From sequence record OK283619.1: a stretch of 64,000 nucleotides of DNA, one strand, 5' to 3'. Source of the stretch: Escherichia phage LPEK22. This document shows positions 1-61,862 of this stretch, piece by piece. How positions within the stretch are numbered: position 1 is the first letter of the stretch; every line of letters starts with the position of its first letter. The notes under the pieces are model-generated. The model had not been told where the DNA came from and did not search any database. It saw nothing but the letters and a program-made list of their open reading frames with translations. The position numbers were made by a program, and so were the translations under genes.

Positions 1-3000
1 CCTTCCCCTACGCGTATTGGGGATTCCGTTACTATTTGTGATGCTTATGGGAAATTTGCCACTTACCCATTGACCGTGTCTCCTTCTGGAAATAATTTGT
101 ATGGCTCCACTGAAGACATGGCTATAACAACTGATAACGTATCAGCAACGTTCACTTGGTCTGGACCTGAACAAGGTTGGGTTATCACATCCGGCGTCGG
201 TCTTGGCCAAGGCCGTGTCTACAGTCGTGAAATCTTTACACAAATTTTGGCGTCTGAAACAAGTGCTGTCACTCTCAATACTCCACCAACAATCGTGGAC
301 GTGTATGCTGACGGAAAACGTCTTGCGGAATCCAAATATTCACTAGATGGGAATGTAATCACTTTCAGTCCTTCTTTGCCAGCCAACACAGAACTTCAGG
401 TGATTGAATATACTCCGATTCAATTGGGTAATGGCGGTGGTTCTGGTTCTTCTACGATTACCTGGGTCTATAATGGGGGTTCAGCGATTGGCGGTGAAAC
501 CGAAATCACGTTAGACATCGTTGTTGATGATGTTCCGGCCATTGATATAAACGGAAGTCGCCAGTATAAAAATCTGGGGTTCACATTCGATCCATTAACC
601 AGTAAAATCACTCTTGCGCAAGAACTGGATGCAGAGGATGAAGTTGTTGTAATTATCAATGGAACGCCAAACATCTATAATCAAATTGATTATACTTTGC
701 GGGAAGTGGCTCGTGTAACCAATGTTAAAGATACAGAGGTCGTTTATTTTAGTGTTGGTGCTGTGTTAAGCGGGTATAAAGTTATCTACGATAAAATAAC
801 ACAGAGATCATATTTTATTCCAGAGTTACCGACTGGAACCACGGCAGTCAGCCTTAGTTCTTCGGCTGTGCTTGTACATTCTGCTGGTAGTGTTGATCTG
901 GGCGCATTAGCTGTATCTCGTGAAGAATATGTTACCTTGGCTGGGACATTTGATTCTGGTGCTGTCATCAATACTAAAAATGAATTACTCACCCATACTG
1001 ATGGAAAGTATCGTTGGGATGGTACACTTCCTAAAACTGTAGCTGCTGGCTCAACACCTGCAACAACTGGAGGCGTTGGTTCGGGAGCGTGGTTGAGTGT
1101 TGGTGATGCCACTGCCCGCCAGTGGGTAGCTAATAATTATATCAATAGTAAATTCGAGAAGTTTGGGTCTTTCTTGCAAGGTTCAGTTTTAACCACCAAC
1201 GAGCAAGCTCTTGTTGATTCAAGTGGTCTTTTCTGGGTTAAATATGGTGCTATACAAAGTGGTGGTTATACAGTAGCGCCGGGAACTGTTCCAGACTATC
1301 CCGATTTTTACTGTGTTGGATATTTAACAGATTATGATTGGCAGTCTGTTACAAACTGGGGTGCTGATAACAACTATTCTATCGCAGATAAGATCGGTGT
1401 AGACGCGGTCGATGCTATAAACCTCGCAGGTTATCATGCGGAGAAACGTGCGGAACTATTCGGATCCCAGCAAGTTGTCATGGTTCCTGCTGGCACTTAT
1501 CTGTTGGATAAAACGACTCTTGTGGAAGGCACGGCGCATGGTCTGACTATTTATCGTAATCAGGAAGTTATGATTTTTCTTCGCAACAACGTTACTTTCA
1601 TCGGCGATGGCGACGCAACGTTACTGTATGTTGCCGATGGTGTTGTTGAGCGCAATAAGGAAAACGGGGGCACTAAAGGCTTTGTAGTTTTCGGTGATGG
1701 TATTCGTGAAATTCAGAACGCATATGTCCACGATATGCTAATTGATGAAAATGGTGACAATAACCTTGTCCCGCCATTGAACTGGTCTGGAGCACAAGCT
1801 CATTGTCCAGCAGTAGCTTGTTACGAAGGTAGTAATGGTGTGACTGTTTCTGGAGTTAACGTCAAGAATGCTCCTGGTGCAAACGTAATGGTATTCCAGG
1901 AAGCTCAGGCAGCGTTCAACAGCTACAATACGCGTGTAGAGAATTGCAACTTCTATCGCGTTGCTGACGCTGTGACTGGAAACAGTAACCTAATAGACCA
2001 CTCATCAATAAGAATTCATTCCGATGGCTACGTTATAAATAACGTTAAATGTATCCAGCCAACCATGTCAGACATGTGTACGGTATTTGAGTGTCATGGT
2101 AATGGGATCGTTGATGGATGCATCACCAAAAAAGCTCGCTACCCATTCCTGAAGGCTAACGACGGTGCTACATCGACATCTATAGTCACCTTCACAAATA
2201 ACGTCTGTGAGGACGCAGGTAGTGCTTTGGTTCTGGATACCGTACCTAACGTTACAACTGTTGCCAGATTTATTGGTAATACTGTAACGCTACGATCAGA
2301 AAAGCAAGTTATCGGGTATCCTAATACTGCGGCATTCACAACACAGCAGCCGTCTGTTTTGTCATCTGACCCAACCACTATTAATGCAATTATTTACTCT
2401 GCAAATAATAACATATTGCAAAAAAACAGAGCCGCAGATTGGACAACTGAACAAAAAGCTGCAAACGTTGCTTATGACCTGGACTATTTCAAAGAAGTTG
2501 TTAGTGAAAATAACACTTTCTCAGGTTTTTGGGGGTGTGTTCGCTTGGGTAAACAAAAAACAGGTGCTACTTTCAACAGCAATGACTCTTTTGTCTCTTG
2601 CGGGACCAACGGTTCACCTCAATTATCAGACAACACAGCCATAAGGTTTACCAATAAATTTGCCAACGATTATCTTGTTCACCTTGATGAAATGCATATT
2701 AAATGGAATATGACAAAATGTCAGTTTGGTGGTGTCCTGGGTTTATTGCAACAAGCAGCAGGAGTGACTGTTGGTGTTGTGCAATTCACTGCTGATATTA
2801 AAACAGATAGATGGATGCATCCAGCGCTTGGGATAGCTCCACTATCCGTACAGGATTACTACTTCAACATTGATGTATACAGTGATGTGAATACCAGTGA
2901 ACCTTTATACGGATACGCTGGTATTCATGGGCAAATTAATGTTGACTCGCCAACTCAACCATATGTTAAACAATTTTACAAATACAAACCAAACACCCAG

Positions 3001-3168
3001 AATGGATGGTGGTTTAAAGGCATTTTAGCAACTGACACAACTTCTGTTCCTGACAGGCCTTTTGGTAATGCGTCTGGTGACAGATATGATGTTATTGCTG
3101 GGGCATCAAATATTTTCGGGTATCGACATAATGGTACAACATGGGATGCAATGAAATTTACATCATAG
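1..3168 (+). CDS. Tailspike protein, 5'-partial (reading frame open to window start; track start at 70 is a TTG). Long N-terminal extension, then the shared anchor module, then a C-terminal domain.
   Basis: Frame has no stop from nt 1. Residues about 236-370 (VKDTEVVYFSVG...YRWDGTLPK...GAWLSVGDA) are about 70 percent identical to the N-termini of the ORFs at 3272 and 8300. Beta-helix or depolymerase fold of the C-terminal part is assumed, not shown. Confidence 0.75.
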   Translation, partial: PSPTRIGDSVTICDAYGKFATYPLTVSPSGNNLYGSTEDMAITTDNVSATFTWSGPEQGWVITSGVGLGQGRVYSREIFTQILASETSAVTLNTPPTIVDVYADGKRLAESKYSLDGNVITFSPSLPANTELQVIEYTPIQLGNGGGSGSSTITWVYNGGSAIGGETEITLDIVVDDVPAIDINGSRQYKNLGFTFDPLTSKITLAQELDAEDEVVVIINGTPNIYNQIDYTLREVARVTNVKDTEVVYFSVGAVLSGYKVIYDKITQRSYFIPELPTGTTAVSLSSSAVLVHSAGSVDLGALAVSREEYVTLAGTFDSGAVINTKNELLTHTDGKYRWDGTLPKTVAAGSTPATTGGVGSGAWLSVGDATARQWVANNYINSKFEKFGSFLQGSVLTTNEQALVDSSGLFWVKYGAIQSGGYTVAPGTVPDYPDFYCVGYLTDYDWQSVTNWGADNNYSIADKIGVDAVDAINLAGYHAEKRAELFGSQQVVMVPAGTYLLDKTTLVEGTAHGLTIYRNQEVMIFLRNNVTFIGDGDATLLYVADGVVERNKENGGTKGFVVFGDGIREIQNAYVHDMLIDENGDNNLVPPLNWSGAQAHCPAVACYEGSNGVTVSGVNVKNAPGANVMVFQEAQAAFNSYNTRVENCNFYRVADAVTGNSNLIDHSSIRIHSDGYVINNVKCIQPTMSDMCTVFECHGNGIVDGCITKKARYPFLKANDGATSTSIVTFTNNVCEDAGSALVLDTVPNVTTVARFIGNTVTLRSEKQVIGYPNTAAFTTQQPSVLSSDPTTINAIIYSANNNILQKNRAADWTTEQKAANVAYDLDYFKEVVSENNTFSGFWGCVRLGKQKTGATFNSNDSFVSCGTNGSPQLSDNTAIRFTNKFANDYLVHLDEMHIKWNMTKCQFGGVLGLLQQAAGVTVGVVQFTADIKTDRWMHPALGIAPLSVQDYYFNIDVYSDVNTSEPLYGYAGIHGQINVDSPTQPYVKQFYKYKPNTQNGWWFKGILATDTTSVPDRPFGNASGDRYDVIAGASNIFGYRHNGTTWDAMKFTS

Positions 3169-3170
3169 TA

Positions 3171-3198
3171 AAAACCCCGCTTCGGCGGGGTTCTTATT
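3171..3198 (+). terminator. Rho-independent terminator after the first tailspike gene
   Basis: ccccgcttcggcgggg hairpin plus ttcttatt. Confidence 0.75.
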
Positions 3199-3231
3199 AT
3201 ATCCATGTTTATAAAATTTTGTTAATTCAGA

Positions 3232-3238
3232 CTAAATA
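3232..3238 (+). promoter_or_regulatory. Late-promoter-like motif CTAAATA(cc) upstream of a tailspike gene
   Basis: T4 late promoters are TATAAATA. The variant [C/T]TAAATAcc recurs upstream of many late genes in this window. Confidence 0.45.
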
Positions 3239-3271
3239 CCCCATATTGGTCATCCTTTATGGGGTATTATC

Positions 3272-5368
3272 ATGATTTCTCAATTCAATCAACCACGCGG
3301 CTCCACTTCCATAGAAGTTAACAAACAATCTATCGCTCGAAATTTCGGTGTCAAAGAAGACGAAGTCATTTATTTCACTGTCGGTATTGATCTCAGCGGA
3401 TTTAAAGTAATTTATGATGAGTCTACCCAACGGGCTTATTCTCTTCCTTCAGGTATTGTTTCAGGAACGACTGCGATAAGTCTGAACGAACAAGCCATCC
3501 TTACTCATTCTTCTGGCTCTGTTGATCTCGGGGAATTAGCAGTAAGCCGCGAAGAATATGTGACTTTACCTGGTTCTTTTAATTTCGGCCATACTATTAA
3601 TGTGAAAAATGAACTTCTTGTTCACGATGATGAAAAATATCGATGGGATGGTGCATTACCTAAAGTTGTTCCTGCTGGTTCAACTCCAGCATCAACTGGT
3701 GGCGTTGGTTTAGGTGCTTGGGTTAGTGTTGGTGATGCTGCATTTAGGCAGGAAGCTAATAAGAAATTCAAATATTCAGTAAAGTTATCTGATTATTCTA
3801 CATTACAGGATGCAGCGACAGCAGCCGTAGATGGATTGCTTATTGATGTTGACTACACTTTTACTGCAGATGAGAATGTAGATTTTAGCGGTAAAGTTTT
3901 AATCATTGAATGCAAAGGAAAATTCATTGGCGATGGTATGTTGGTTTGGAATGGTTTGGGTGCGGGCTCAGTAATTAAGAAACCGCACATGCATACTAAA
4001 ACTACGCCGTATACTGTTTACCGATTCGATGCAAACGGTAATTGGGTTACAGACCCAACACAAGTTCTGGCATCTGTTCAGCAGCGTTTGGATGTTGGAT
4101 ATAAGCCAAATATTAACGATTTAGATATTTGGGACGACCTTCCTGATAATGTAAAAAATCAGGTTGCTGGTGCTACTTTGCGAATAATGAGCGGCGATAA
4201 TATCATCGTAGAGAACCCAGAAGCTACATTTGGTGGTTATCTATTTACTTTATGTAATAGGATTCTTGTTAAGAATCCACGCAATTTTATTGCTTTGGAA
4301 TCGGGCATTACATTTGAGAACCATCATACAACTGCATGGGGTACTGGCAACTGGGTTGTTGGGGGTGAGATAAAATATGGCTCTGGTTCCGCTGTACTGT
4401 TCATTCGCAATGATGGTGGTACAGACCATGATGGTGGAGTAAGGGATTTAATCTCATACCGTGTTGGAGAATCAGGTATTAAAACCTATCAGAACGAAAT
4501 TGGAGGTCGTTCAGCCAGGAACTACCGTTTAGTGTTCGACAATATAACTACAATCCAGTGTTACTATGATGGTATTGATGTTAATGCTGACACAGGGTCG
4601 CCAACTGAACGTGTGGATGACTACTCACTCGCAGAGTATCCATGGTTCCACCTACCTACTCAACATATCATCCGTAATATTATTACTCGTGATTGTATGG
4701 GGATTGGTGCTTGGTGGGATGGTCAGAAAAATATTATTGATAATGTTGTTACTTATGAGGCCCATAAGGAAGGCGTCTTCGATAGGGGTACTAACAATGA
4801 TATTACTAACATTACTGTAGTAGGTGCGAATAAGGATTTAACTAACCTAAATCAGCTTACCTGTGAGGGAGGTAGTAGACTTCGTGGTATTAACATCCAT
4901 GCATATACTACACAAGGTTACGCTATATACGCTCCGTCTTCAGAAGTAAGTAATGTTTCCTGTGCTGGTTCCGGTACTAAGAAATTACTATGTACCTATA
5001 TAAGCGATATTCAGGGAGGTAATATCAATGTTCAGCATAGTGCCAACCAAATGACACTTGCAATGCAACCTGCTATGGGTGGTACTACAAACCCATCTTT
5101 GCTTATGACGGCAGATTGCCAGGTTGCTACACCAGGGGGTGAGGCAAGTATTGTCAAGCTTTCGGCAATTCAGGAGGGTGTACGTGTAGGTGAGTTTCAG
5201 CTTAACCGCTTAGGCTTTAAGCATATGAGTATACCTGCTGCCCCTTTACAATTACCAGAGAGCGCTCTGGAACATAATTCATCTATAGGATTCTTCTTCG
5301 GAAGTGACGGAGCATTGAGGTTGCTTGCTAAAAAACCAGATGGAAGTTATGTAACATACACACTTTAA
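3272..5368 (+). CDS. Tailspike protein (698 aa) with N-terminal shared anchor module
   Basis: ATG start. N-terminal 150 aa (VKEDEVIYFTVG...YRWDGALPKVVPAGSTPASTGGVGLGAWVSVGDA) matches the module in the other tailspikes. Preceded by terminator and late-promoter-like motif. Confidence 0.8.
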   Translation: MISQFNQPRGSTSIEVNKQSIARNFGVKEDEVIYFTVGIDLSGFKVIYDESTQRAYSLPSGIVSGTTAISLNEQAILTHSSGSVDLGELAVSREEYVTLPGSFNFGHTINVKNELLVHDDEKYRWDGALPKVVPAGSTPASTGGVGLGAWVSVGDAAFRQEANKKFKYSVKLSDYSTLQDAATAAVDGLLIDVDYTFTADENVDFSGKVLIIECKGKFIGDGMLVWNGLGAGSVIKKPHMHTKTTPYTVYRFDANGNWVTDPTQVLASVQQRLDVGYKPNINDLDIWDDLPDNVKNQVAGATLRIMSGDNIIVENPEATFGGYLFTLCNRILVKNPRNFIALESGITFENHHTTAWGTGNWVVGGEIKYGSGSAVLFIRNDGGTDHDGGVRDLISYRVGESGIKTYQNEIGGRSARNYRLVFDNITTIQCYYDGIDVNADTGSPTERVDDYSLAEYPWFHLPTQHIIRNIITRDCMGIGAWWDGQKNIIDNVVTYEAHKEGVFDRGTNNDITNITVVGANKDLTNLNQLTCEGGSRLRGINIHAYTTQGYAIYAPSSEVSNVSCAGSGTKKLLCTYISDIQGGNINVQHSANQMTLAMQPAMGGTTNPSLLMTADCQVATPGGEASIVKLSAIQEGVRVGEFQLNRLGFKHMSIPAAPLQLPESALEHNSSIGFFFGSDGALRLLAKKPDGSYVTYTL

Positions 5369-5380
5369 TTTATCTTGAGC

Positions 5381-5409
5381 AAAAACCCCGCTTTGGCGGG
5401 GTTCTTATT
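5381..5409 (+). terminator. Rho-independent terminator after the second tailspike gene
   Basis: ccccgctttggcgggg hairpin plus ttcttatt. Confidence 0.75.
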
Positions 5410-5441
5410 ATACCTTTGTTCATAAATTTTATTAGTTCAGA

Positions 5442-5448
5442 CTAAATA
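5442..5448 (+). promoter_or_regulatory. Late-promoter-like motif CTAAATA(cc)
   Basis: Same motif, upstream of the third tailspike gene. Confidence 0.45.
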
Positions 5449-5483
5449 CCCCATATTGGCAAATCCTTATGGGGTATTTTCAA

Positions 5484-8249
5484 ATGACCAGAAATGTAGA
5501 AGAATTATTCGGCGGCGTAATCACAGCTCCCCACCAGATTCCTTTCACGTATAAATCAAATGTCGGTGGAGAAACTTTCCTTTCTTTGCCGTTCCATCCC
5601 GTCACTGGTGTTATCACAATCAACGGTGGTATGCAAGTTCCGTTAGACAACTTTGAAATCGAAGGAAATACATTGAATCTCGGACGCGCATTGTCCAAAG
5701 GCGATGTTGTGTATTGCTTATTCGATAAAATTCTTTCGCCAGAAGATACAGCCAAAGGTATCCGCATATACAAATTTCAGGCCGTAGGAGGTGAAACCGA
5801 GTTCACTCCTGATTTCACATCTTATGGAGTCCAATCTCTTTATATCGGTGGCGAGTACAAAACCCCCGAAATTGAATATTCCTATGACAGTACGACAGGA
5901 AAAGTATCTTTGCAAACTGCACTGACTGCAGGCGTTTGGGTAGTCGCTGAAATGTCTGTTAAACAACCGAATATCAGTCCGGCGTTTGACCGAAGTATTC
6001 AAGAAATCGCCCGTTCTGCTAATGTAAAAGACTCTGAAGTCATCGTTAGTACGGACACCATATCTTTGTTGGATGGGAAGAAAGTTGTTTATGACATAGC
6101 GGCGCAAACCAGTTATGGTTTACCAACCATTCCTGATGGTTCTGTCATTTCTTCTGTATCTGCTGGGAAATTGAATTACAATCCAGGTGATGTGCAGGTT
6201 GATTTGTTGCCTTTAGAAGATTCATTTATTAATGTGATAAACACTCTGGGGCGAAATGATGGTGCCAAGTATATTGGAGAATGCCATTCTGTTGCTGATC
6301 TCAGGAATACTGAACCCACTATGGATGGACAACGCATTATTCTTAAGCAACACACTGCGGGTACTCTTCTTGGTGGAGGGGTATTCCGTGCGTTAATTGA
6401 TGGTACAGGAAAGACTGATAATAACGGTACTGTGATCAAAACTGTTGGCGGCGCAGCATGGTTACGTGTTAATGCTGATAGAGTTAACCCATTCATGTTT
6501 GGTGCTTTGGGTGGTTCTAATGATGATACTATTCCAGTACAATCTTGTGTGGATAGTGGTAAGGCCACACAATTAACTGGTGTACATTACGTTAGCAATA
6601 TCCAGTTAAAATATAATACGTCGTCTATTTATGGGTCTGGATTACATTACTCAAGGTTGCATCAGTTGCCTTCTGCTACTGGGAATTGTATTACCATAAA
6701 AGATACATGCTCCCTTATTGTATTAGACGCCTTTGGGGTATATGGCACAGGTGCACAACAAGGCACGTCATTTACTGCGGGCACAACAGGTATCTATGTA
6801 GAAACTCCTTCAGGTCTCTCAGCCGATTATCCGTTCCACACTACCGCAGACCCAAGACGGGACTTGTGTATTTCTAAGGTCCATATAGCAGGTTTTGATG
6901 AATATGGGTTAAATATTGATAGTGGTAACTTTAGTGTTACTACAGATTCTCTTTTAGTCAACCACATCAATCAGGTGGGTGTCCGTTGTGCTACTACTGA
7001 TTGGACTTGGACAAATATCCAGGTTAATACCTGCGGTAAACAATGTCTAGTTCTTGATGGTTGTGGTAATGGTCGTATTATTGGCGGTAAATTCATTTGG
7101 GCTAACTGGCAACCTTATGGTACAGTAGGACAGTTCCCAGGCATTACTATTAATAACAGCCAGAATATGGTTATTAATGGTATTGAGGTACAAGATTGTG
7201 GCGGGAATGGTATTGAGATTAGCGAGTCATATTCAATTTCCATGAACGGATTGAACACCAATCGTAACGGCATCAATGCTAACAACACTTTCTACAACAT
7301 CGTATTTAACAAAAGTGATGCAGTTATCAACGGATTCGTAGGACTCAATTATGCCGCGAATAGTGGTTCAGGTGCTAACTCTAGTGCAGGCAATTTTCAG
7401 TTCCTGTCTAATGATTGTAGTGTCACCATTAATGGTGTGGTTGAGACTGGTTATATGGGCATTAACTTTATTGGTGATAACAATATTATCAACCCCACCA
7501 ATTCCGACCTGAGCATTAACGGATTGGTTAATTATTCCAAGACTGGTTTGCAAACCATGAACGAGACCCCTACATTTGATGGTGTTAGCACTACACCTGT
7601 TTATGTAAGTGTCCCATCTTCTGTAGGGCAAGTAAATGGTCTGAGACTATCACAAGCCAACAAAGATAAATTACTGTATTCAAGAACAGCAGGTCCAGAA
7701 GGTATTACCATGGCTGCTGTTGTAGTACCCACCATATCTGGAGCTGAAGTATTTAACTTCATGGCCATTGGTTCAGGGTTTAGTGATACATCCAACAGTC
7801 TTCATCTTCAATTAGTTATAGACGCTTCTGGAAAACAAACAATTGCTTTGCTATTGGGGGGCGATGGTACAACCCAAATTTTATCTGGGGATTTACCTAA
7901 CGACCTTAAACTACAAAGTGGTGTACCATATCATATAGCTATTGGTGCTAAACCTGGATATTTCTGGTGGAGTATTCTTAATATTCAGACGGGTAAGAGA
8001 ATCAGACGGTCATTCCGAGGCGCTTATTTAGCCGTACCATTTAATTCTATATTCGGATTAACTTCTTCATTAACATTCTTCTCGGATAGCAATGCTGGTG
8101 GGGATGCTTGTTCTGGGGTGGGCGCTAAAGTGTATGTTGGTATGTTCTCTTCCGAGAACGATTATGTAGCTTCACGATACTACAATCTGATTAATCCGGT
8201 AGACCCTACTAAGTTAATTAGTTACCGTATATTGGATTCTTCTATTTAA
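5484..8249 (+). CDS. Tailspike protein (about 921 aa) with N-terminal extension and a diverged anchor module
   Basis: ATG at 5484 preferred over the in-frame ATG at 5469, which lies inside the upstream hairpin. Residues about 180-250 (ANVKDSEVIV...VVYDIAAQTSYGLP) are a diverged copy of the module. C-terminal domain fold not verified. Confidence 0.7.
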   Translation: MTRNVEELFGGVITAPHQIPFTYKSNVGGETFLSLPFHPVTGVITINGGMQVPLDNFEIEGNTLNLGRALSKGDVVYCLFDKILSPEDTAKGIRIYKFQAVGGETEFTPDFTSYGVQSLYIGGEYKTPEIEYSYDSTTGKVSLQTALTAGVWVVAEMSVKQPNISPAFDRSIQEIARSANVKDSEVIVSTDTISLLDGKKVVYDIAAQTSYGLPTIPDGSVISSVSAGKLNYNPGDVQVDLLPLEDSFINVINTLGRNDGAKYIGECHSVADLRNTEPTMDGQRIILKQHTAGTLLGGGVFRALIDGTGKTDNNGTVIKTVGGAAWLRVNADRVNPFMFGALGGSNDDTIPVQSCVDSGKATQLTGVHYVSNIQLKYNTSSIYGSGLHYSRLHQLPSATGNCITIKDTCSLIVLDAFGVYGTGAQQGTSFTAGTTGIYVETPSGLSADYPFHTTADPRRDLCISKVHIAGFDEYGLNIDSGNFSVTTDSLLVNHINQVGVRCATTDWTWTNIQVNTCGKQCLVLDGCGNGRIIGGKFIWANWQPYGTVGQFPGITINNSQNMVINGIEVQDCGGNGIEISESYSISMNGLNTNRNGINANNTFYNIVFNKSDAVINGFVGLNYAANSGSGANSSAGNFQFLSNDCSVTINGVVETGYMGINFIGDNNIINPTNSDLSINGLVNYSKTGLQTMNETPTFDGVSTTPVYVSVPSSVGQVNGLRLSQANKDKLLYSRTAGPEGITMAAVVVPTISGAEVFNFMAIGSGFSDTSNSLHLQLVIDASGKQTIALLLGGDGTTQILSGDLPNDLKLQSGVPYHIAIGAKPGYFWWSILNIQTGKRIRRSFRGAYLAVPFNSIFGLTSSLTFFSDSNAGGDACSGVGAKVYVGMFSSENDYVASRYYNLINPVDPTKLISYRILDSSI

Positions 8250-8299
8250 AAAATACACCCCTCTTAGGAGGGGCTTACTAGAAAAACAAAGAGGTATGT

Positions 8300-10612
8300 A
8301 TGAACGAGATGTTTAGTCAAGGTGGTAAGGGTTCAACTGGAATCCTAACCAACAAACAAGCAGTAGCTAGACACTTTGGGGTTAAGCAATCTGAGATTGT
8401 TTACTTTTCGGTTGGTGTAGATTTAGGGGGGTATAAAGTTATCTATGACAAGGAAACGCAAAGAGCTTATTCCTTACCTGCTGGTATTGCTTCTGGTACT
8501 ACTGCCGTCAGTCTTAATACTGCTGCTGTACTTGTACATTCAGCAGGTTCTGTAGACTTAGGTGCATTAGCTGTATCTCGTGAAGAATACGTAACCTTAC
8601 CTGGTTCGTTTGATTCTGGCTCTACGCTTAACGTTAAAAATGAATTACTCACTTATACAGATGGTAAGTATCGCTGGGATGGAGCATTACCTAAAGCTGT
8701 CCCTGCCGGTTCAACTCCTGCATCAACTGGTGGTATTGGTCTTGGCGCGTGGGTTAGTGTTGGTGATGCTTCTTTGAGAACACAACTGGCAAACGGCAAT
8801 GGCTCGTTGATTGGAATTCACCCGCAGGGAACGCTAAATAATGTATTAACTGTGCGCACACCTGAACAGTACAATGCGGTAGGCGACGGAATAGATGACG
8901 ATACTTCAAAATTAAAAGAAATGCTTTCAGACATAAACAACGTTCCTGAAACACTTCCTGATGCTGCGGCTGTAAACTCGTACATGGAGCAAGTAGCAGT
9001 AAAAATTAACCTGACCAAGTTATACCGATTCACAGAGACGCTATACATACCCCCAGGTGTTTCAATTGAAATGCCAGCACCAAACTTTTTTACTCGTGAG
9101 TGTAAGCAAGGATTGTTTTATGACCCAGTAGATAAGAATACAGCAGCAATCAGCTTAATGGTGTACCGTAAACAACCTGATGGTTCATACAAACTCAATA
9201 AAGATGTAGATTATTATCCTACTGGGTTAGATATTGATAATGGGTACGCTGTAACATGTGCCAGAAAAATTGATATTAGTAACCTTAACCTGATTACAGC
9301 ACCAGGTGTAAAGGTTGGTGTTAAATGGATAGGTGGGGCAGGTTGCACTACAAAAGGGTTATCTATTGGGGAGAATACAGGGAGCGATATTACAACAGCA
9401 AGACTGCCAAGAGTAGGATTGTTGCAGTCAGCATCATGGGGTTCTGTTCATGAAAATCTACGCATCCTGTATAAAACTCAGGGCGCAGTGTTCATTGACT
9501 CTAATGGCGGTGCTACTGTAAACAATGCTTACATTTCCCGCCTTGGTAATACCAATGGTGAGCTAGAACAAGCGGTGTATAAACCAGCAGGGTTTACTGA
9601 GGTAGGTGATGTTGCCATCACTCAGTTTGCAGGTTCAGAGGTTAAGTTTAATAGCCCAATCATCGAACAAGCATCATTCGACTTTGTTCACGCTGGCCGG
9701 GATACTGATTCCTACGGTTTATTTATGGTTGATAAACCCCACATTGAATCATCTGGTGGGAAGAAAAAACATAGTTTCTACCTGATCAATACCAGTTCAG
9801 ATGTTACGTTGTCAGGGGTAGGTCTTTCCGGACAAGACCCTGATCTAGATAGTATGTACTTCCTTAAAAACTGCCCAGAAACTGCCCGAAATGTTGTCAG
9901 AGGACAAATGCCAGTAGGTGGTTTAAAACTCGTTAGAGGTACTGGTAACTACCCTACATTGGTACTCGACTGTACAAATATGGGAAGTCAATTCCAATTT
10001 GGGGAAGTTGGTGACATTTTCTATATCAAAGATGTTGTTGGTGTAAAAGCAGACACTCTATACATAGATCCTGTAAATGGTAATAACTACAACTGGGGAT
10101 TTAACGGAACCAAACCTATAAGAGAGCTACTTAATATTTCAAAGTTATGCCAGCTATTCAAGTGCAAAAGAGTTTATCTTAACCCAGGTGAGATAGCCAT
10201 TACCTCTAACACGGAGTTGCCGATGGTTAATTTTGAAGGTACTGGTAGCTTGAAGGCAAATTCTGGTAGTAGCTTCCTTATCAAAACCGGTGGGACATTA
10301 TCATTAATTGGGCTTGCTGGTATATCTACAGATGGCGGCCATATGTTTAGAGTCTCCACCACGGAAAAAGTAAACATACATACTAACTGCCCAGTGGATT
10401 CTGGTGCGGCCTATGTTGTACTAAGTGAGATTCAGGGTAATATTGAATACAGGCAATTATTCTATTCTGTAAATTGTTCTAAGTATGTAGGTGCAACAGC
10501 TGGACAAACTATCGCTGGTGTCATGGTTAAGACAGCGTCAAGACCGACAGGAATAGATGCTGATCCAGTTGATGGTAATACTTCTCTAACCTATAAAATT
10601 ATAGGATCATAG
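8300..10612 (+). CDS. Tailspike protein (770 aa) with N-terminal shared anchor module
   Basis: ATG with RBS aaagaggt. N-terminal 150 aa about 75 percent identical to the ORF at 3272. Followed by a strong hairpin plus T-run terminator. Confidence 0.8.
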   Translation: MNEMFSQGGKGSTGILTNKQAVARHFGVKQSEIVYFSVGVDLGGYKVIYDKETQRAYSLPAGIASGTTAVSLNTAAVLVHSAGSVDLGALAVSREEYVTLPGSFDSGSTLNVKNELLTYTDGKYRWDGALPKAVPAGSTPASTGGIGLGAWVSVGDASLRTQLANGNGSLIGIHPQGTLNNVLTVRTPEQYNAVGDGIDDDTSKLKEMLSDINNVPETLPDAAAVNSYMEQVAVKINLTKLYRFTETLYIPPGVSIEMPAPNFFTRECKQGLFYDPVDKNTAAISLMVYRKQPDGSYKLNKDVDYYPTGLDIDNGYAVTCARKIDISNLNLITAPGVKVGVKWIGGAGCTTKGLSIGENTGSDITTARLPRVGLLQSASWGSVHENLRILYKTQGAVFIDSNGGATVNNAYISRLGNTNGELEQAVYKPAGFTEVGDVAITQFAGSEVKFNSPIIEQASFDFVHAGRDTDSYGLFMVDKPHIESSGGKKKHSFYLINTSSDVTLSGVGLSGQDPDLDSMYFLKNCPETARNVVRGQMPVGGLKLVRGTGNYPTLVLDCTNMGSQFQFGEVGDIFYIKDVVGVKADTLYIDPVNGNNYNWGFNGTKPIRELLNISKLCQLFKCKRVYLNPGEIAITSNTELPMVNFEGTGSLKANSGSSFLIKTGGTLSLIGLAGISTDGGHMFRVSTTEKVNIHTNCPVDSGAAYVVLSEIQGNIEYRQLFYSVNCSKYVGATAGQTIAGVMVKTASRPTGIDADPVDGNTSLTYKIIGS

Positions 10613-10613
10613 T

Positions 10614-10644
10614 AAAAACCCCGCTTCGGCGGGGGTTTTATTTC
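10614..10644 (+). terminator. Rho-independent terminator after the fourth tailspike gene
   Basis: ccccgcttcggcggggg hairpin plus ttttatttc. Confidence 0.8.
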
Positions 10645-10666
10645 TATCCTGTTTGTTGGCTGTATA

Positions 10667-10684
10667 CTAAATATCTCTATAAAT
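10667..10684 (+). promoter_or_regulatory. Late-promoter-like motifs (ctaaata and tataaatg) upstream of the 1612-aa gene
   Basis: tactaaatatctctataaatgg. Confidence 0.4.
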
Positions 10685-10705
10685 GGCACTCTATGGAGCA
10701 TCAAA

Positions 10706-17181: not shown

Positions 17182-17188
17182 CTAAATA
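17182..17188 (+). promoter_or_regulatory. Late-promoter-like motif upstream of the gp14-like gene
   Basis: gactaaatacc. Confidence 0.45.
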
Positions 17189-17211
17189 CCTTCAAAATTG
17201 AGGGTAAAGTC

Positions 17212-30052: not shown

Positions 30053-30139
30053 TTGTTTATCGTAACGATTTAATACGCGAATAGTTCAATAACAATTCCT
30101 GTTGTACGATATAACTTTCTTACAACAGGAGTATCAGTC

Positions 30140-30454
30140 ATGACAACCCGAAATATTACCTCTGAACAATCCGTGTCACAAATCCTCATTAATTCCCGCA
30201 CCCAAAAAGAACGTCTTTTTGACATCCTCACTAATGTGATCAATATTCGTCGACAATTAGATGGTGAATTTCCCGAATCTGATTCTGAAGAAAAATCAAC
30301 ACACAATCCAGGTCTTGTTGGTGCTATCCTTAACATACAAGGAGAGCAGGACGATATCATCGATAGAATCAATGCCCACATGGACGTCATCCATACTAAA
30401 CTGGGAACGTTTTATCACCCAAATTGTGAAGACGAGTCTAAAGATAATTGTTAA
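30140..30454 (+). CDS. Hypothetical protein (104 aa)
   Basis: ATG. RBS aggag lies in the 3' arm of a hairpin (30098-30129). Confidence 0.45.
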   Translation: MTTRNITSEQSVSQILINSRTQKERLFDILTNVINIRRQLDGEFPESDSEEKSTHNPGLVGAILNIQGEQDDIIDRINAHMDVIHTKLGTFYHPNCEDESKDNC

Positions 30455-33590: not shown

Positions 33591-33618
33591 TATAAATACC
33601 CCCAAAATTGGGGGTATT
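33591..33618 (+). promoter_or_regulatory. TATAAATA late-promoter-like box fused to a 9-bp-stem hairpin immediately upstream of the ATG at 33621
   Basis: tataaataccccc aaaatt gggggtattt. Arms aataccccc / gggggtatt. Confidence 0.45.
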
Positions 33619-33620
33619 TT

Positions 33621-36025: not shown

Positions 36026-36771
36026 TGGTTTCTCTACAGGCTTTGCGCAAACTTAATGACTTTGAAAATCGTCATCATACATTTCAGCAATATTCCTTGC
36101 CGTTTAAGGAACTGACTTGCGTAACTACCGAAAATGGTCGTCACTATGTTTCCCCCACTGGAGTCAAACTAACTTCAGTGACGACCATGTTAGGGCGTAC
36201 TGGTGACCACACATGGTTAGAAGCCTGGCGGGACAAGTTGGGGCATGAAGCTGCTGATATAGAAACACATCGTTGCGCAGACCGTGGGGAAAAACTTCAT
36301 TTGGCTTGTGAGTTGTATCTCAAAAACAGACCAATGAAGGAAGTTCTGGAAGCTGCAGGGGAATACGTGTTTATGTTCAAACAGGTTTTCCCCTACCTTA
36401 ACAAAATGAGCAAGATATATGCACAAGAGATTCCATTATATAGCGAAGTCCTGGGTCTTGCTGGTCGTGTTGACCTCATCGGGGTTTACGAAGGAATTCC
36501 AAGCATAATCGATTTCAAAACATCTAACACCCTAAAAACTCGAAGCATGATAGAAGATTATAGTATTCAATTGTGTCTATACTCAGTCATGTTTCAACAA
36601 ATGTTTAATGTCAAGATAGAGCGTTTAATCAATATTATATCCAACGAAAATGCCCTTGTTCCCACCATAATCGAATTCGATCGCAAAGACGTTATTTCTA
36701 AAATGTTTGACCGTGTCCGTCTGTATCACAAAATGAACAAAGAACAGAACGGAATCTGGGCGGATCGCTAA
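36025..36771 (+). CDS. PD-(D/E)XK family nuclease (RecB/Cas4-like exonuclease fold), tentative
   Basis: GRVDLIGVYEGIPSIIDFKTS fits the D...(D/E)xK catalytic core. ATG at 36025 overlaps the upstream stop. Confidence 0.55.
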   Translation: MVSLQALRKLNDFENRHHTFQQYSLPFKELTCVTTENGRHYVSPTGVKLTSVTTMLGRTGDHTWLEAWRDKLGHEAADIETHRCADRGEKLHLACELYLKNRPMKEVLEAAGEYVFMFKQVFPYLNKMSKIYAQEIPLYSEVLGLAGRVDLIGVYEGIPSIIDFKTSNTLKTRSMIEDYSIQLCLYSVMFQQMFNVKIERLINIISNENALVPTIIEFDRKDVISKMFDRVRLYHKMNKEQNGIWADR

Positions 36772-36774
36772 ATA
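36768..36774 (+). promoter_or_regulatory. Late-promoter-like motif upstream of uvsW
   Basis: gctaaatactc, about 27 nt before the uvsW ATG. Confidence 0.4.
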
Positions 36775-36800
36775 CTCCATAATATTGGGGGAAATTAGTG

Positions 36801-41203: not shown

Positions 41204-41668
41204 ATGGCGCGTAATACGCTGGACATCTTAAAACTTTCAGCTGTCAACGATGAGGCCAGCATTGTTGACTGTATGGTTGAAGTTCAATTGAACCAAGACA
41301 AACCAGGGATTTTCCTGGGTATCAAGGAAACGCTGAGTCGGATAGGGGTTAACACTCGTCAAGAGCCTAACACCTTGTATCAAACGTGCCATATTCTGCA
41401 TAAATTTGGCAGATATCACATCGTGCATTTCAAGCATCTTTTCATGCTAGATGGGCACTACAACGGCTTTACGCGTGAAGATGTCCTGCGTATGAATCGG
41501 ATTATACGGCTTCTGGAGCAATGGAATATGGTTAAGATCTTGCATCCGGAACAAATAACCGAAGTGGCTGACATGTCTCGGATCAAAGTTGTAAAACATG
41601 ACCAAGTTTCTGAGTGGAAACTGGTTCCAAAATACACCATTCGCCCAAGTCGGGCAAAAAGCGAATAA
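41204..41668 (+). CDS. regA: RegA-like translational repressor
   Basis: LYQTCHILHKFGRYHIVHFKHLFMLDG and EWKLVPKYTI match T4 RegA (LYQSCHILQKKGLYYIVHFKEM, EWKLVPKYTI) as recalled. Confidence 0.85.
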   Translation: MARNTLDILKLSAVNDEASIVDCMVEVQLNQDKPGIFLGIKETLSRIGVNTRQEPNTLYQTCHILHKFGRYHIVHFKHLFMLDGHYNGFTREDVLRMNRIIRLLEQWNMVKILHPEQITEVADMSRIKVVKHDQVSEWKLVPKYTIRPSRAKSE

Positions 41669-61070: not shown

Positions 61071-61862
61071 ATGGGTATGAATTTTGTAGACAGGGGTGAT
61101 AACGTCACCAAATATTTCACAGACGAAGATAATGACCGTGTTGTTGGAATATTGAGAGATTGGATTCCGGCTCGCAAAAAGGCTTTGGCCGAAGGAACAC
61201 CCCTACCAAGAATCCCCAATTATGTGGCCATGAATGTTCAGATGATTATTAAGAACATGAGTATGCGCTACAACTATCGTGATTATCCATACCGCGAAGA
61301 CATGGTCAGTGAGGCCGTTGTCAACATCCTTCGTTACCTCCATACATTTGACGTCAGTCATATCGGCAAGAAAGGAAAAATCAATTTCTTCTCTTGGGTA
61401 ACGATGTGCGCCGATCGTTCATTCGCCAAGAAACTCACCAGTGAAGAAGAACACAATTATATCAAGTTGCGTTCATTTGAAGAAGCAGGTGGTTTCGCTG
61501 CATTATCAGATGACCCAGACTTCCAGCAACAGACATTCGTAGACAGCACTGGTATAACAATGGACTTCCGTGAGCGTATCGGAAATTTTGAAACTAAGAA
61601 AGAAGCACAGCGCGAAAAGGAACGCCAAAAGCAAATCGCCATCAAAGAAGAGGAAAAGAATAAGAAAATTCCTCGCGGTATACTTCAATGTCTCACAAAG
61701 AGTGAAAATACCATTACCGCCGACGCCGAAGATAATTCAGACTATGACTTCGGCTCTACTCAATTCAATCTGGAAGACGAAATATGTTCTATGGAACCAG
61801 ATTGGGAAGAAGCAAAGAAACGAGCATTAGAACGGGAGCAACAAAATAATGGCGATTGCTAA
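61071..61862 (+). CDS. Late-transcription sigma factor, T4 gp55-like, with C-terminal extension
   Basis: QMIIKNMSMRYNYRDYPYREDMVSEAVVNILRYLHTFD and INFFSWVTMCADRSFAKKLTSEEE parallel T4 gp55 as recalled. 263 aa against about 185 aa in T4; extra Lys/Glu-rich C-terminal region. Confidence 0.75.
   Translation: MGMNFVDRGDNVTKYFTDEDNDRVVGILRDWIPARKKALAEGTPLPRIPNYVAMNVQMIIKNMSMRYNYRDYPYREDMVSEAVVNILRYLHTFDVSHIGKKGKINFFSWVTMCADRSFAKKLTSEEEHNYIKLRSFEEAGGFAALSDDPDFQQQTFVDSTGITMDFRERIGNFETKKEAQREKERQKQIAIKEEEKNKKIPRGILQCLTKSENTITADAEDNSDYDFGSTQFNLEDEICSMEPDWEEAKKRALEREQQNNGDC

What the first reader, a model, noticed from the sequence alone, without database searches (positions are those of the whole stretch)
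3169..3271. Duplicated intergenic cassette: terminator, late promoter, hairpin with G-run
The intergenic DNA before the tailspike genes at 3272 and 5484 is nearly the same about 100-bp element (second copy 5378-5483). Each has a terminator hairpin, an AT-rich spacer, cagaCTAAATAcc, and a perfect 10-bp inverted repeat ataccccata / tatggggtat. The 5' arm overlaps the promoter-like motif, and the 3' arm carries the only G-run near the start codon, which may act as the Shine-Dalgarno. One palindrome could therefore couple promoter recognition and translation initiation, and the duplicated cassette could mediate exchange of tailspike genes.
Basis: seen in the sequence. Interest (0 to 1): 0.5.

Follow-up and report, generated by a model that had tools for sequence, protein, structure and literature searches.

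The report
Late promoter inside an RBS-masking hairpin
The repeated DNA in front of two tailspike genes of this Salmonella phage is a terminator followed by a T4-type late promoter built into a hairpin that hides the ribosome-binding site, so probably only RNA started at that promoter is translated; this trick is already known from the phage T4 lysozyme gene.

Summary
The window is a Kuttervirus (100% identical to Salmonella phage SFP10 over 2800-5900). The intergenic regions before TSP3 (ATG 3272) and TSP2 (ATG 5484) are about 85-90% identical. Each holds an intrinsic terminator, an AT-rich spacer, CTAAATA, and a perfect 10-bp inverted repeat whose 3' arm carries the Shine-Dalgarno GGGGU.

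The interpretation needs re-aiming. CTAAATA is a gp55-type late promoter, at -12 to -6. It lies inside the 5' arm, so RNA started there (predicted +1 at 3244 and 5454) cannot form the hairpin and has a free ribosome-binding site. RNA arriving from upstream folds a -17 to -21 kcal/mol hairpin over the SD. This is the phage T4 gene e / soc / 49 / I-TevI mechanism.

It is a genome-wide design. In SFP10, 11 of 27 TAAATA-preceded genes have such a hairpin, against 13 of 174 other genes. They include TSP4, the endolysin and the RuvC-like resolvase. Orthologues show compensatory changes and shifting G.U pairs.

The element has two halves. The promoter-hairpin half stays with the downstream gene. The terminator-spacer half follows TSP4, TSP3 and TSP1, the three spikes with the GTTA[V/I]SL motif, which is circumstantial support for a role in module exchange.

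No transcript ends were mapped. Verdict: a new member of a known kind, of modest interest.

The parts
3173..3202 (+). Intrinsic terminator after TSP4. Stem AACCCCGC / GCGGGGTT, TTCG loop, tail CTTATTATAT.
   Evidence: Flagged by the terminator scan: 8 pairs, 6 of them G-C. Folds as predicted. A 29-bp stretch (3162-3190) is 100% identical to 10606-10634.
3203..3231 (+). AT-rich spacer of copy A.
   Evidence: Sequence. It aligns with copy B with small indels. Other Kuttervirus genomes carry the B-type spacer at this position.
3232..3238 (+). CTAAATA, a gp55-type late promoter placed at -12 to -6. The predicted transcript start is about 3244.
   Evidence: Motif enrichment upstream of genes. T4 and Aeh1 geometry from PMC1524935. 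The start site is inferred, not mapped.
3235..3245 (+). 5' arm of the hairpin (AATACCCCATA). It overlaps the last four bases of the promoter motif.
   Evidence: Fold (11-bp stem). The perfect 10-bp repeat 3236-3245 / 3258-3267 is confirmed.
3258..3268 (+). 3' arm (TATGGGGTATT). It contains the Shine-Dalgarno GGGGU at 3261-3265.
   Evidence: The anti-SD duplex is -6.0 kcal/mol with 5 nt spacing.
3272..5368 (+). TSP3 tailspike gene (698 aa).
   Evidence: Matches PF09251 (P22 tail-spike, 6e-106) and PF18668. Annotated as tail spike 3 in related records.
5384..5413 (+). Intrinsic terminator after TSP3. Same stem as copy A, TTTG loop, tail CTTATTATAC.
5442..5448 (+). CTAAATA late promoter of copy B. 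The predicted transcript start is about 5454.
5444..5455 (+). 5' arm of the copy B hairpin (AAATACCCCATA).
   Evidence: (12-bp stem).
5468..5479 (+). 3' arm of copy B (TATGGGGTATTT). It contains the SD GGGGU at 5471-5475 and the spurious annotated ATG at 5469.
5484..8249 (+). TSP2 tailspike gene (921 aa). The true start is 5484.
   Evidence: The cloned TSP2 gene of S117 is 2766 bp.
10613..10705 (+). Third, partial copy after TSP1. Terminator at 10619-10634, spacer, CTAAATA at 10667-10673, then a hairpin-less leader to the VriC-like gene (ATG 10706).
   Evidence: The energy difference between the long and short leader (ddG) is only -2.8 kcal/mol.
33591..33620 (+). Another element of the same kind in the window: TATAAATA-CCCCCaaaattGGGGGTAT-tttt-ATG. 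The 5' arm is 33596-33603 and the 3' arm is 33610-33617.
   Evidence: -21.7 kcal/mol for the long RNA against -1.6 kcal/mol from the predicted start. Orthologues show AA/UU changing to AU/AU.
17182..17211 (+). Weaker element of the same kind: CTAAATA-CCTTCAAaaTTGAGGG-taaagtc-ATG (head-closure gene).
   Evidence: ddG -11.8 kcal/mol.
36768..36800 (+). Weaker element of the same kind: CTAAATA-CTCC...GGGG before the helicase gene.
   Evidence: ddG -14.7 kcal/mol.
61071..61862 (+). gp55-like late sigma factor, the protein expected to read the CTAAATA promoters.
   Evidence: phrog_234, late sigma transcription factor, E = 1.6e-53. The gp33 coactivator (PF16805, 4.6e-19) and a gp45-type clamp are also encoded.

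Best explanation
Each cassette is two devices joined end to end.

1. A rho-independent terminator ends the upstream tailspike transcript.
2. A T4-type (gp55/gp33/gp45-dependent) late promoter, CTAAATA, is embedded in the 5' arm of a hairpin. The 3' arm of that hairpin is the Shine-Dalgarno sequence plus the spacer of the next tailspike gene.

RNA polymerase starting at this promoter begins about 6 nt after the motif, at roughly 3244 and 5454. That is at the end of the 5' arm, so the late mRNA lacks the arm, leaves GGGGU free and is translated. Any RNA that enters from upstream contains both arms. Such RNA could be terminator read-through, transcripts from the baseplate operon, or early or middle transcripts. 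It folds a 10-13 bp hairpin of -17 to -21 kcal/mol over the SD and is translationally silent.

The result is that each tailspike gene is expressed only from its own late promoter, whatever lies upstream. This is the mechanism established for T4 genes e, soc, 49 and I-TevI.

What is shown here:
- the sequence anatomy;
- the folding energies;
- genome-wide enrichment of the arrangement;
- conservation and covariation of sister hairpins;
- the presence of the late-transcription proteins.

What is inferred:
- the position of the transcript start;
- the existence of read-in transcripts;
- the translational block.

A secondary inference concerns the terminator-spacer half. It forms the shared 3' flank of the exchangeable receptor-binding modules of TSP4, TSP3 and TSP1.
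For: - Anatomy and chance tests.
- Folding: RNA containing both arms folds at -20.9 and -18.9 kcal/mol (z = -4.4 and -3.3). RNA from the predicted +1 folds at -5.2 and -3.8 kcal/mol, which is not better than shuffles.
- SD: GGGGU is the best anti-SD match before each ATG.
- Promoter identity: TAAATA is strongly enriched 14-50 nt upstream of CDS starts, 27 of 72 copies against 1.7 expected, and it is the rarest of its permutations. gp55, gp33 and gp45 homologues are present. T4 TATAAATA lies at -13 to -6 and Aeh1 CTAAATA starts at -12 (PMC1524935).
- Robustness to the exact start site: the stem begins inside the motif (AAATA pairs with UAUUU), so no transcript from this promoter can hold the whole arm.
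- Generality: 11 of 27 TAAATA-preceded genes in SFP10 lose at least 11 kcal/mol of leader structure when the RNA starts at the predicted +1. The figure is 13 of 174 for other genes (Fisher p = 2.7e-5) and 6% when arms are swapped between sites.
- The set includes the endolysin and the Holliday-junction resolvase, functional counterparts of the classic T4 cases e and 49.
- Evolution:
  - Resolvase leaders show AAC/GUU changing to AUC/GAU, an A-U pair changing to G-C, and a paired G/C insertion.
  - Endolysin leaders show G.U pairs that move along the stem, which fits RNA of the sense strand and not a DNA palindrome.
  - TSP4 leaders in another genus replace the inner stem but keep about -18.6 kcal/mol.
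- Positive control: the gene e leader of a T4-like contig, ATAAATAcccctatataagggggtattATG before MNIFEMLRIDEG, has nearly the same arms and gives -13.1 against -0.7 kcal/mol.
- T4 mechanism and its roughly 100-fold effect: PMC3014915 and PMC2988022.
Against: - No transcript 5' end has been mapped for any Ackermannviridae phage. A literature search found none, and the 2024 family review does not mention promoters or transcripts.
- TSP3 and TSP2 already have a strong terminator about 40 nt upstream, so little RNA should read in and the need for a second safeguard is not obvious.
- The upstream genes are themselves late structural genes, unlike T4 e or I-TevI, which sit in early units. The biological reason for silencing read-in RNA here is therefore conjecture. 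Candidates are equal dosage of the four spikes, or portability of the module.
- The bases just after the motif are CCCC, whereas T4 late promoters are AT-rich there (PMC2988020). The C-run could be partly a promoter preference rather than a pairing partner.
- The TSP3 and TSP2 hairpins themselves are invariant across all genomes seen, so covariation evidence comes from sister and paralogous hairpins only.
- Formal covariation on the sister hairpins is modest: 2 pairs with changes on both sides, reached by 7 of 500 shuffles.
Confidence: 0.7

Rival explanations
1. The hairpin is present in the functional late mRNA because the real start site lies upstream, for example in the AT-rich spacer. In that case it acts as a 5' stabiliser, or as a translational brake that some factor must open.
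For: The spacer holds TATAAAAT and CATAAAT-like strings. The phage encodes a RegA-type translational regulator (PF01818, 4e-35). No start site has been mapped.
Against: The spacer strings are not conserved between the copies, and they are absent where the promoter-hairpin follows coding DNA directly (TSP4 leader; L007, L011, L015, L017, L018). CTAAATA is the element that is invariant and genome-wide. A hairpin of -17 to -21 kcal/mol over the SD of abundant structural genes would be counter-productive.
Confidence: 0.07
2. The hairpin is mainly a second, weak intrinsic terminator or attenuator. It stops read-in transcription at the ribosome-binding site, and own-promoter RNA escapes because it lacks the 5' arm.
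For: Several members are followed by U-rich tracts: UAUUUUC in copy B, UAUUUUU at the resolvase, UAUUUUCUU at the endolysin. The pattern TAAATACCCC...GGGGTAT followed by a T-run, with no nearby ATG, is common as a terminator-like element in unrelated viral contigs.
Against: Copy A (UAUUAUC) and the TSP4 leader (UAUUACAAA) lack a U-tract. The terminator scan does not flag either palindrome, partly because the loop is 12 nt. This reading gives the same outcome, insulation from upstream transcription, and could act together with translational masking.
Confidence: 0.1
3. The palindrome works as DNA. It is either an operator for a dimeric regulator of late promoters, or a cruciform-prone hotspot cut by the phage SbcCD-like or RuvC-like nucleases that stimulates tailspike exchange.
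For: It is a perfect inverted repeat overlapping a promoter. The phage encodes gp46/47-like and RuvC-like nucleases. Homology breakpoints between phages fall right at CTAAATA in five loci.
Against: The spacing between arm centres differs among family members, at about 14, 16 and 22 bp, which a single dimeric protein would not tolerate. Stems contain G.U pairs that move between orthologues; these pair in sense-strand RNA but are mismatches in DNA and A.C on the other strand. The same design precedes genes that are not exchanged, such as the endolysin, resolvase and helicase. Breakpoints at CTAAATA are also what purifying selection on the promoter, hairpin and N-terminal anchor would produce.
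Confidence: 0.06
4. The complementarity has no function of its own. It is a by-product of a C-rich promoter-proximal preference meeting a G-rich SD, carried along by a recent duplication.
For: Many late promoters here read TAAATAcc or TAAATAct, and SDs are G-rich. Copies A and B are clearly duplicates.
Against: Swapping 5' and 3' parts between sites gives strong hairpins in only 6% of combinations, against 41% for native pairs. Inner stem positions outside the C-run and G-run pair in every member and co-vary. Apical loops vary while stems stay. The promoter-hairpin is conserved into Limestonevirus, where the TSP2 N-terminus is only 42% identical.
Confidence: 0.05

Closest known systems
Phage T4 gene e (lysozyme) leader, and the same arrangement at T4 soc, 49, I-TevI/II/III, segB and Aeh1 mobE. 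McPheeters et al. 1986, reviewed in PMC3014915 and PMC2988022.
   Same: A gp55-type late promoter lies in the DNA that encodes the 5' strand of a hairpin sequestering the SD. Long transcripts are masked, and late transcripts start inside the structure and are translated. A T4-like gene e leader retrieved here has almost the same arms, AUACCCCU...GGGGGUAU. In this phage the endolysin and the resolvase carry the device too.
   Different: - Here it controls tailspike genes that sit in a late structural cluster and, for TSP3 and TSP2, directly behind a strong terminator.
- The promoter variant is CTAAATA rather than TATAAATA.
- The device is used at about 40% of predicted late promoters, not at a handful of genes.
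- It is duplicated as part of a roughly 100-bp cassette.
- Nothing has been tested experimentally.
Aeromonas phage Aeh1 late promoters, consensus CTAAATA from -12 (PMC1524935).
   Same: The same heptamer in the same inferred position relative to genes, in a phage with a divergent gp55.
   Different: Aeh1 is a T4-like phage from a different family. The Kuttervirus consensus had been reported as not yet identified (CBA120 paper, PMC3184105), or was searched for only as TATAAATA with one mismatch (AG3 paper, PMC3121705).
Rho-independent terminators with a stable tetraloop, and conserved intergenic junctions flanking exchangeable receptor-binding modules. The GTTAVSL recombination motif of Kuttervirus TSP1, TSP3 and TSP4 is described in PMC8432352.
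   Same: The first half of the cassette is a canonical terminator. It follows exactly the three tailspikes that carry the GTTA[V/I]SL motif, so their receptor-binding modules are bracketed by shared DNA on both sides.
   Different: The published model names only the coding motif and the conserved N-termini as recombination sites. A role for the intergenic terminator-spacer is an inference from this analysis and is untested.

Membership tests
T4 gene e-type translational gate (late promoter embedded in an RBS-sequestering hairpin) | The phage encodes the gp55 late sigma, the gp33 coactivator and the gp45 clamp. | tested here: met
   phrog_234 late sigma at 61071-61862 (1.6e-53) and phrog_223 clamp. 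PF16805 late-transcription coactivator in SFP10 (4.6e-19).
T4 gene e-type translational gate (late promoter embedded in an RBS-sequestering hairpin) | A gp55-type -10 motif (TATAAATA or a variant) lies immediately upstream of the gene. | tested here: met
   CTAAATA at 3232-3238 and 5442-5448. The motif is enriched upstream of CDS starts. The variant is documented for Aeh1.
T4 gene e-type translational gate (late promoter embedded in an RBS-sequestering hairpin) | A stable hairpin pairs the SD and/or the start codon in transcripts that extend from upstream. | tested here: met
   An 11-12 bp stem covers GGGGU. Folding energies are -20.9 and -18.9 kcal/mol (z = -4.4 and -3.3). The SD is 1-9% unpaired in the long RNA and about 50% unpaired in the short RNA.
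T4 gene e-type translational gate (late promoter embedded in an RBS-sequestering hairpin) | The late transcript starts inside the structure and so lacks the 5' strand. | not testable with these tools
   This follows from geometry. The motif is part of the 5' arm, and +1 is expected 6 nt after it. No 5'-end data exist for this phage family.
T4 gene e-type translational gate (late promoter embedded in an RBS-sequestering hairpin) | Transcripts from upstream promoters actually reach the gene. | not testable with these tools
   This is certain by layout for the TSP4 leader and for L007 and L011, where there is no terminator and coding DNA abuts CTAAATA. For copies A and B it requires terminator read-through.
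T4 gene e-type translational gate (late promoter embedded in an RBS-sequestering hairpin) | Translation is repressed on the long transcript and relieved on the late one. | not testable with these tools
   Needs reporter, toeprint or ribosome-profiling experiments.
T4 gene e-type translational gate (late promoter embedded in an RBS-sequestering hairpin) | The structure, rather than the sequence, is conserved among relatives. | tested here: inconclusive
   The TSP3 and TSP2 stems are invariant, so they are uninformative. Sister hairpins (resolvase, endolysin, TSP4, SFP_0133) show compensatory or G.U-preserving changes, but the number of events is small.
Rho-independent (intrinsic) terminator | A G+C-rich stem-loop is followed by a T-run at the end of a gene. 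| tested here: met
   3173-3192 and 5384-5403 have 8 pairs, 6 of them G-C, with T-rich tails. They lie 5-16 nt after the stop codons.
Known RNA families (Rfam 15) | A match at the gathering threshold. | tested here: not met
   No Rfam family matches anywhere in the 64-kb window.

The most novel reading that the evidence does not exclude
The terminator / promoter-in-hairpin unit is a portable, context-independent expression cassette that Ackermannviridae use for two purposes.

(a) It equalises the dosage of the branched tailspike complex. TSP4, TSP3 and TSP2 would each be translated only from an identical own promoter, and TSP1 would ride on the TSP2 transcript.

(b) Together with the GTTA[V/I]SL coding motif, it provides the 3' homology arm that lets receptor-binding modules move between the TSP4, TSP3 and TSP1 slots and between phages.

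The promoter-inside-hairpin principle may also extend to non-late promoters in this phage, for example the TATAAC box in the loop of the SD-masking hairpin at 30098-30139.
Probability: 0.2. Interest if true: 0.55.

Novelty: new member of a known kind. Interest (0 to 1): 0.33.

Why it matters
- It supplies a concrete late-promoter consensus, (C/T)TAAATA, and predicted start sites for a phage family whose late signals were reported as unidentified. This family is widely engineered for diagnostics and biocontrol through tailspike swapping.
- Anyone replacing or inserting tailspike genes should keep the sequence from CTAAATA to the ATG intact. They should also know that a gene placed behind this leader will probably be translated only from its own promoter.
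- It corrects two start-codon annotations.
- It shows that the T4 lysozyme-type gate is not a curiosity of a few T4 genes. It is a routine design, at about 40% of predicted late promoters, in a distant T4-related family, and it also occurs at structural genes of marine T4-like phages.
- The link between the terminator half and the GTTA[V/I]SL-bearing spikes gives a testable model for where module exchange happens.

Tried and rejected
- Rfam scan of the whole window: no family matched.
- Literature searches:
  - Nothing was found on mapped transcription start sites in Ackermannviridae.
  - The 2024 family review contains no mention of promoters, transcripts, terminators or hairpins.
  - The CBA120 and AG3 genome papers do not describe the motif or the hairpin.
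  - McPheeters 1986 is not held in the library, so the T4 details are taken from two reviews.
- Sigma-70 promoter scan: 38 sites against 42 expected, so nothing meaningful on the + strand in the cassette. The best hit is on the minus strand of copy A's spacer and is not conserved in copy B.
- Palindrome as a terminator: not flagged by the scan. Kept only as a minor rival.
- Palindrome as a DNA operator: rejected because of variable arm spacing and G.U pairs.
- Covariation on the TSP3 and TSP2 hairpins themselves: impossible, because the stems are identical in every genome retrieved, including other genera.
- MAFFT misplaced the paired G/C insertion in the resolvase alignment, so the formal counts understate pairing. 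Single-sequence folds show that all variants form the stem.
- Deletion of TSP3 through the two direct-repeat cassettes: L010 lacks TSP3, but its junction lies in the coding TD/GTTAVSL region and not in the cassette. It is therefore not evidence for cassette-mediated recombination.
- The pattern search in viral contigs was biased towards CCCC/GGGG arms and returned many unrelated terminator-like hits. It was used only qualitatively.
Full report
**Identity of the window**

Positions 2800-5900 are 100% identical to Salmonella phage SFP10 (Kuttervirus, Ackermannviridae) and several sister phages. The window is collinear with the reverse complement of SFP10, with a few indels. The gene order on the + strand is as follows:

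| Gene | Window coordinates |
|---|---|
| TSP4 | starts before position 1, ends 3168 |
| TSP3 | 3272-5368 |
| TSP2 | 5484-8249 |
| TSP1 | 8300-10612 |
| VriC-like structural gene | 10706-15544 |

The 3272 protein carries the P22-tailspike and TSP N-terminal Pfam domains.

**Check of the observation**

- The two intergenic regions align at 85% identity over the wider stretch, and at 90% over 80 bp by blastn.
- Each has a canonical intrinsic terminator, at 3173-3192 and 5384-5403.
- Each has an AT-rich spacer.
- Each has cagaCTAAATAcc. CTAAATACC occurs 3 times in 64 kb against 0.3 expected.
- Each has the perfect inverted repeat ATACCCCATA / TATGGGGTAT. It occurs only at these two places and never in shuffles.
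- Folding extends the stem to 11-12 bp plus an inner GG/CC pair.
- GGGGU in the 3' arm is the best anti-SD match (-6.0 kcal/mol, spacing 5-7 nt). The ATG at 5469 used in the SFP10 record has none.
- Start at 5484 is further supported by an in-frame TAA after the arm ATG in LIMEstone1 and by the 2766-bp TSP2 clone of phage S117.

**What CTAAATA is**

- In the window, 9 of 10 CTAAATA copies are on the + strand, and 8 of them lie 23-42 nt before a start codon. TATAAATA occupies the same position before two more genes.
- In the whole SFP10 genome, 27 of 72 TAAATA copies lie 14-50 nt upstream of an annotated CDS, against 1.7 expected (p about 1e-25).
- TAAATA is the rarest of its 15 permutations. 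It has 38% of copies upstream of genes, against 3-11% for the others.
- The phage encodes a gp55-like late sigma (window 61071-61862, phrog_234, 1.6e-53), a gp33-like coactivator (PF16805) and a gp45-type clamp.
- The literature places T4 TATAAATA at -13 to -6, and reports CTAAATA starting at -12 as the late consensus of phage Aeh1 (PMC1524935; PMC2988020).
- For the ViI-like phages the late consensus was said to be unidentified (PMC3184105), or was searched for only as TATAAATA with one mismatch (PMC3121705).

I therefore take CTAAATA as the late promoter. The predicted +1 is at about 3244 and 5454.

**The key geometric point**

The hairpin's 5' arm (3235-3245 and 5444-5455) begins inside the promoter motif and ends at the predicted start site. 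A transcript made from this promoter therefore cannot contain the arm, whatever the exact start.

| RNA | Copy A (TSP3) | Copy B (TSP2) |
|---|---|---|
| Containing both arms | -20.9 kcal/mol (z = -4.4) | -18.9 kcal/mol (z = -3.3) |
| From the predicted +1 | -5.2 kcal/mol | -3.8 kcal/mol |

The energies from the predicted +1 are no better than shuffles. The SD is 1-9% unpaired in the long RNA and about 50% unpaired in the short RNA.

The palindrome therefore does not act within one RNA to link promoter recognition and translation. It makes translation depend on which promoter made the RNA. This is the mechanism established for T4 gene e (lysozyme), soc, 49 and the intron endonucleases. There, long early transcripts are masked about 100-fold, and late transcripts start inside the structure (PMC3014915; PMC2988022).

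**It is a family of elements, not a tailspike peculiarity**

- In SFP10, 11 of 27 TAAATA-preceded genes lose at least 11 kcal/mol of leader structure when the RNA is started at the predicted +1.
- The comparison figures are 13 of 174 for other genes (Fisher p = 2.7e-5) and 6% of combinations when 5' and 3' parts are swapped between sites.
- Members include TSP4 (just outside the window: CTAAATAcccctagatg...catttaggggtat, 13 bp, no terminator upstream), TSP3, TSP2, the endolysin, the RuvC-like resolvase, a helicase, a head-closure protein and several small ORFs.
- Three further members lie in the window, at 17182, 33591 and 36768.
- All five late promoters that head divergent operons lack a hairpin, and every hairpin-bearing one is downstream of a same-strand gene. 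This is the trend expected if the hairpin deals with read-in RNA, but the numbers are small.

**Evolutionary evidence**

- From CTAAATA to the ATG, the TSP3 and TSP2 leaders are essentially invariant in all Kuttervirus loci. They are also invariant in two loci with 63-65% TSP2 identity and in LIMEstone1 (42% identity). Only the apical loop varies. This shows strong constraint but gives no covariation.
- Resolvase leaders show AAC/GUU changing to AUC/GAU, an A-U pair changing to G-C, and a paired G/C insertion. Formally, 2 pairs change on both sides, a value reached by 7 of 500 shuffles.
- Endolysin leaders keep 98.7% pairing through G.U pairs that shift position. This argues for sense-strand RNA rather than a DNA palindrome.
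- TSP4 leaders in another genus have a different inner stem with the same stability.
- SFP_0133 orthologues change AA/UU to AU/AU.
- As a positive control, a T4-like contig's gene e leader (before MNIFEMLRIDEG) reads ATAAATAcccctatataagggggtattATG and gives -13.1 against -0.7 kcal/mol.
- Marine T4-like contigs use TATAAATAcccctagg...ctaggggtat before a neck-protein-like gene.

**The cassette has two separable halves**

- In L007 and L011, the coding DNA of a different TSP4 runs right up to CTAAATA.
- In L013 only half the spacer is present.
- In L015, L017 and L018 there is no terminator.
- In L006, L009, L012, L014 and L016 the TSP4-TSP3 junction carries the B-type spacer.
- The full roughly 100-bp duplication is seen in 8 of 10 genomes that have both genes.

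The promoter-hairpin half therefore belongs to the downstream gene, and the terminator-spacer half belongs to the upstream module.

- The terminator aaaaaccccgcttYggcgggg follows TSP4, TSP3 and TSP1, with a 29-bp perfect match between 3162-3190 and 10606-10634.
- These are exactly the three spikes carrying GTTA[V/I]SL. TSP2 has neither the motif nor that terminator.
- That motif was proposed as the recombination site for receptor-binding modules (PMC8432352).

The modules are thus bracketed on both sides by shared DNA. Selection on function would also leave breakpoints at these places.

**Weak points**

- No 5' ends are mapped.
- A good terminator already precedes copies A and B.
- The upstream genes are late too, so the selective reason is conjecture. 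Candidates are equal dosage of the four spikes, insulation of a portable module, or protection against early read-through.
- The CCCC after the motif departs from the AT-rich T4 pattern.
- The hairpin might also act as a weak terminator where a U-tract follows it.

**Verdict**

- The element is a new member of a known kind: the T4 gene e-type gate, joined to a terminator.
- It has practical value for annotation and tailspike engineering, and modest scientific surprise.

Noticed in passing
window 30098-30142: A 9-bp hairpin, CCTGTTGTA...TACAACAGG, masks the SD (AGGAG) of the ORF starting at 30140. A sigma-70 -10-like TATAAC sits in its loop. Similar arrangements with a TTATAAT box occur at the SFP10 DNA ligase and SFP_0085 leaders. 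The promoter-inside-hairpin gating may therefore also be used with non-late promoters.
   Followed up: partly
window 5469 vs 5484; SFP10 record 45032-45643: The SFP10 annotation starts TSP2 and the RuvC-like resolvase at an ATG inside the 3' arm of the hairpin. In each case the next in-frame ATG, 15 nt downstream, is the one preceded by the SD.
   Followed up: yes
window 8250-8299: TSP1 has no CTAAATA of its own. The 50-bp gap after TSP2 holds only a hairpin (8257-8274) that scores as a terminator on the minus strand and has no T-run on the + strand. TSP1 is therefore probably co-transcribed with TSP2.
   Followed up: partly
window 3225..3196, minus strand: The best sigma-70-like match in the first 17.5 kb (TTAACA-18-TATAAT, 11 of 12) lies antisense in the spacer of copy A. 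It is not conserved in copy B, so it is probably a by-product of AT-rich DNA.
   Followed up: partly
L010 3767-6990: This Kuttervirus genome has no TSP3 gene. Its TSP4 carries the C-terminal module and 3' flank that belong to TSP3 in the window. This looks like an in-frame fusion through the shared TD/GTTAVSL coding repeat.
   Followed up: partly
window 904-1109, 3628-3739, 8564-8770: Direct DNA repeats of 80-88% identity lie in the TD-domain coding regions of TSP4, TSP3 and TSP1. With the shared terminators, they bracket the receptor-binding modules.
   Followed up: partly
L109 (reverse strand, about 6190-6230); L119, L070, L175, L111: The gene e (lysozyme) leader of a T4-like contig has arms almost identical to the tailspike hairpin. 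Marine T4-like contigs carry TATAAATAcccctagg...ctaggggtat just before a neck-protein-like ORF. The design is therefore widespread among T4-related phages.
   Followed up: partly
SFP10 whole genome (L002-L005): TAAATA is the rarest of its 15 same-composition hexamers (72 copies against 93-200). This suggests avoidance of spurious late promoters.
   Followed up: partly
window 41204-41668: A RegA-type translational repressor (PF01818, 4e-35) is encoded. Its targets in this phage are unknown.
   Followed up: no
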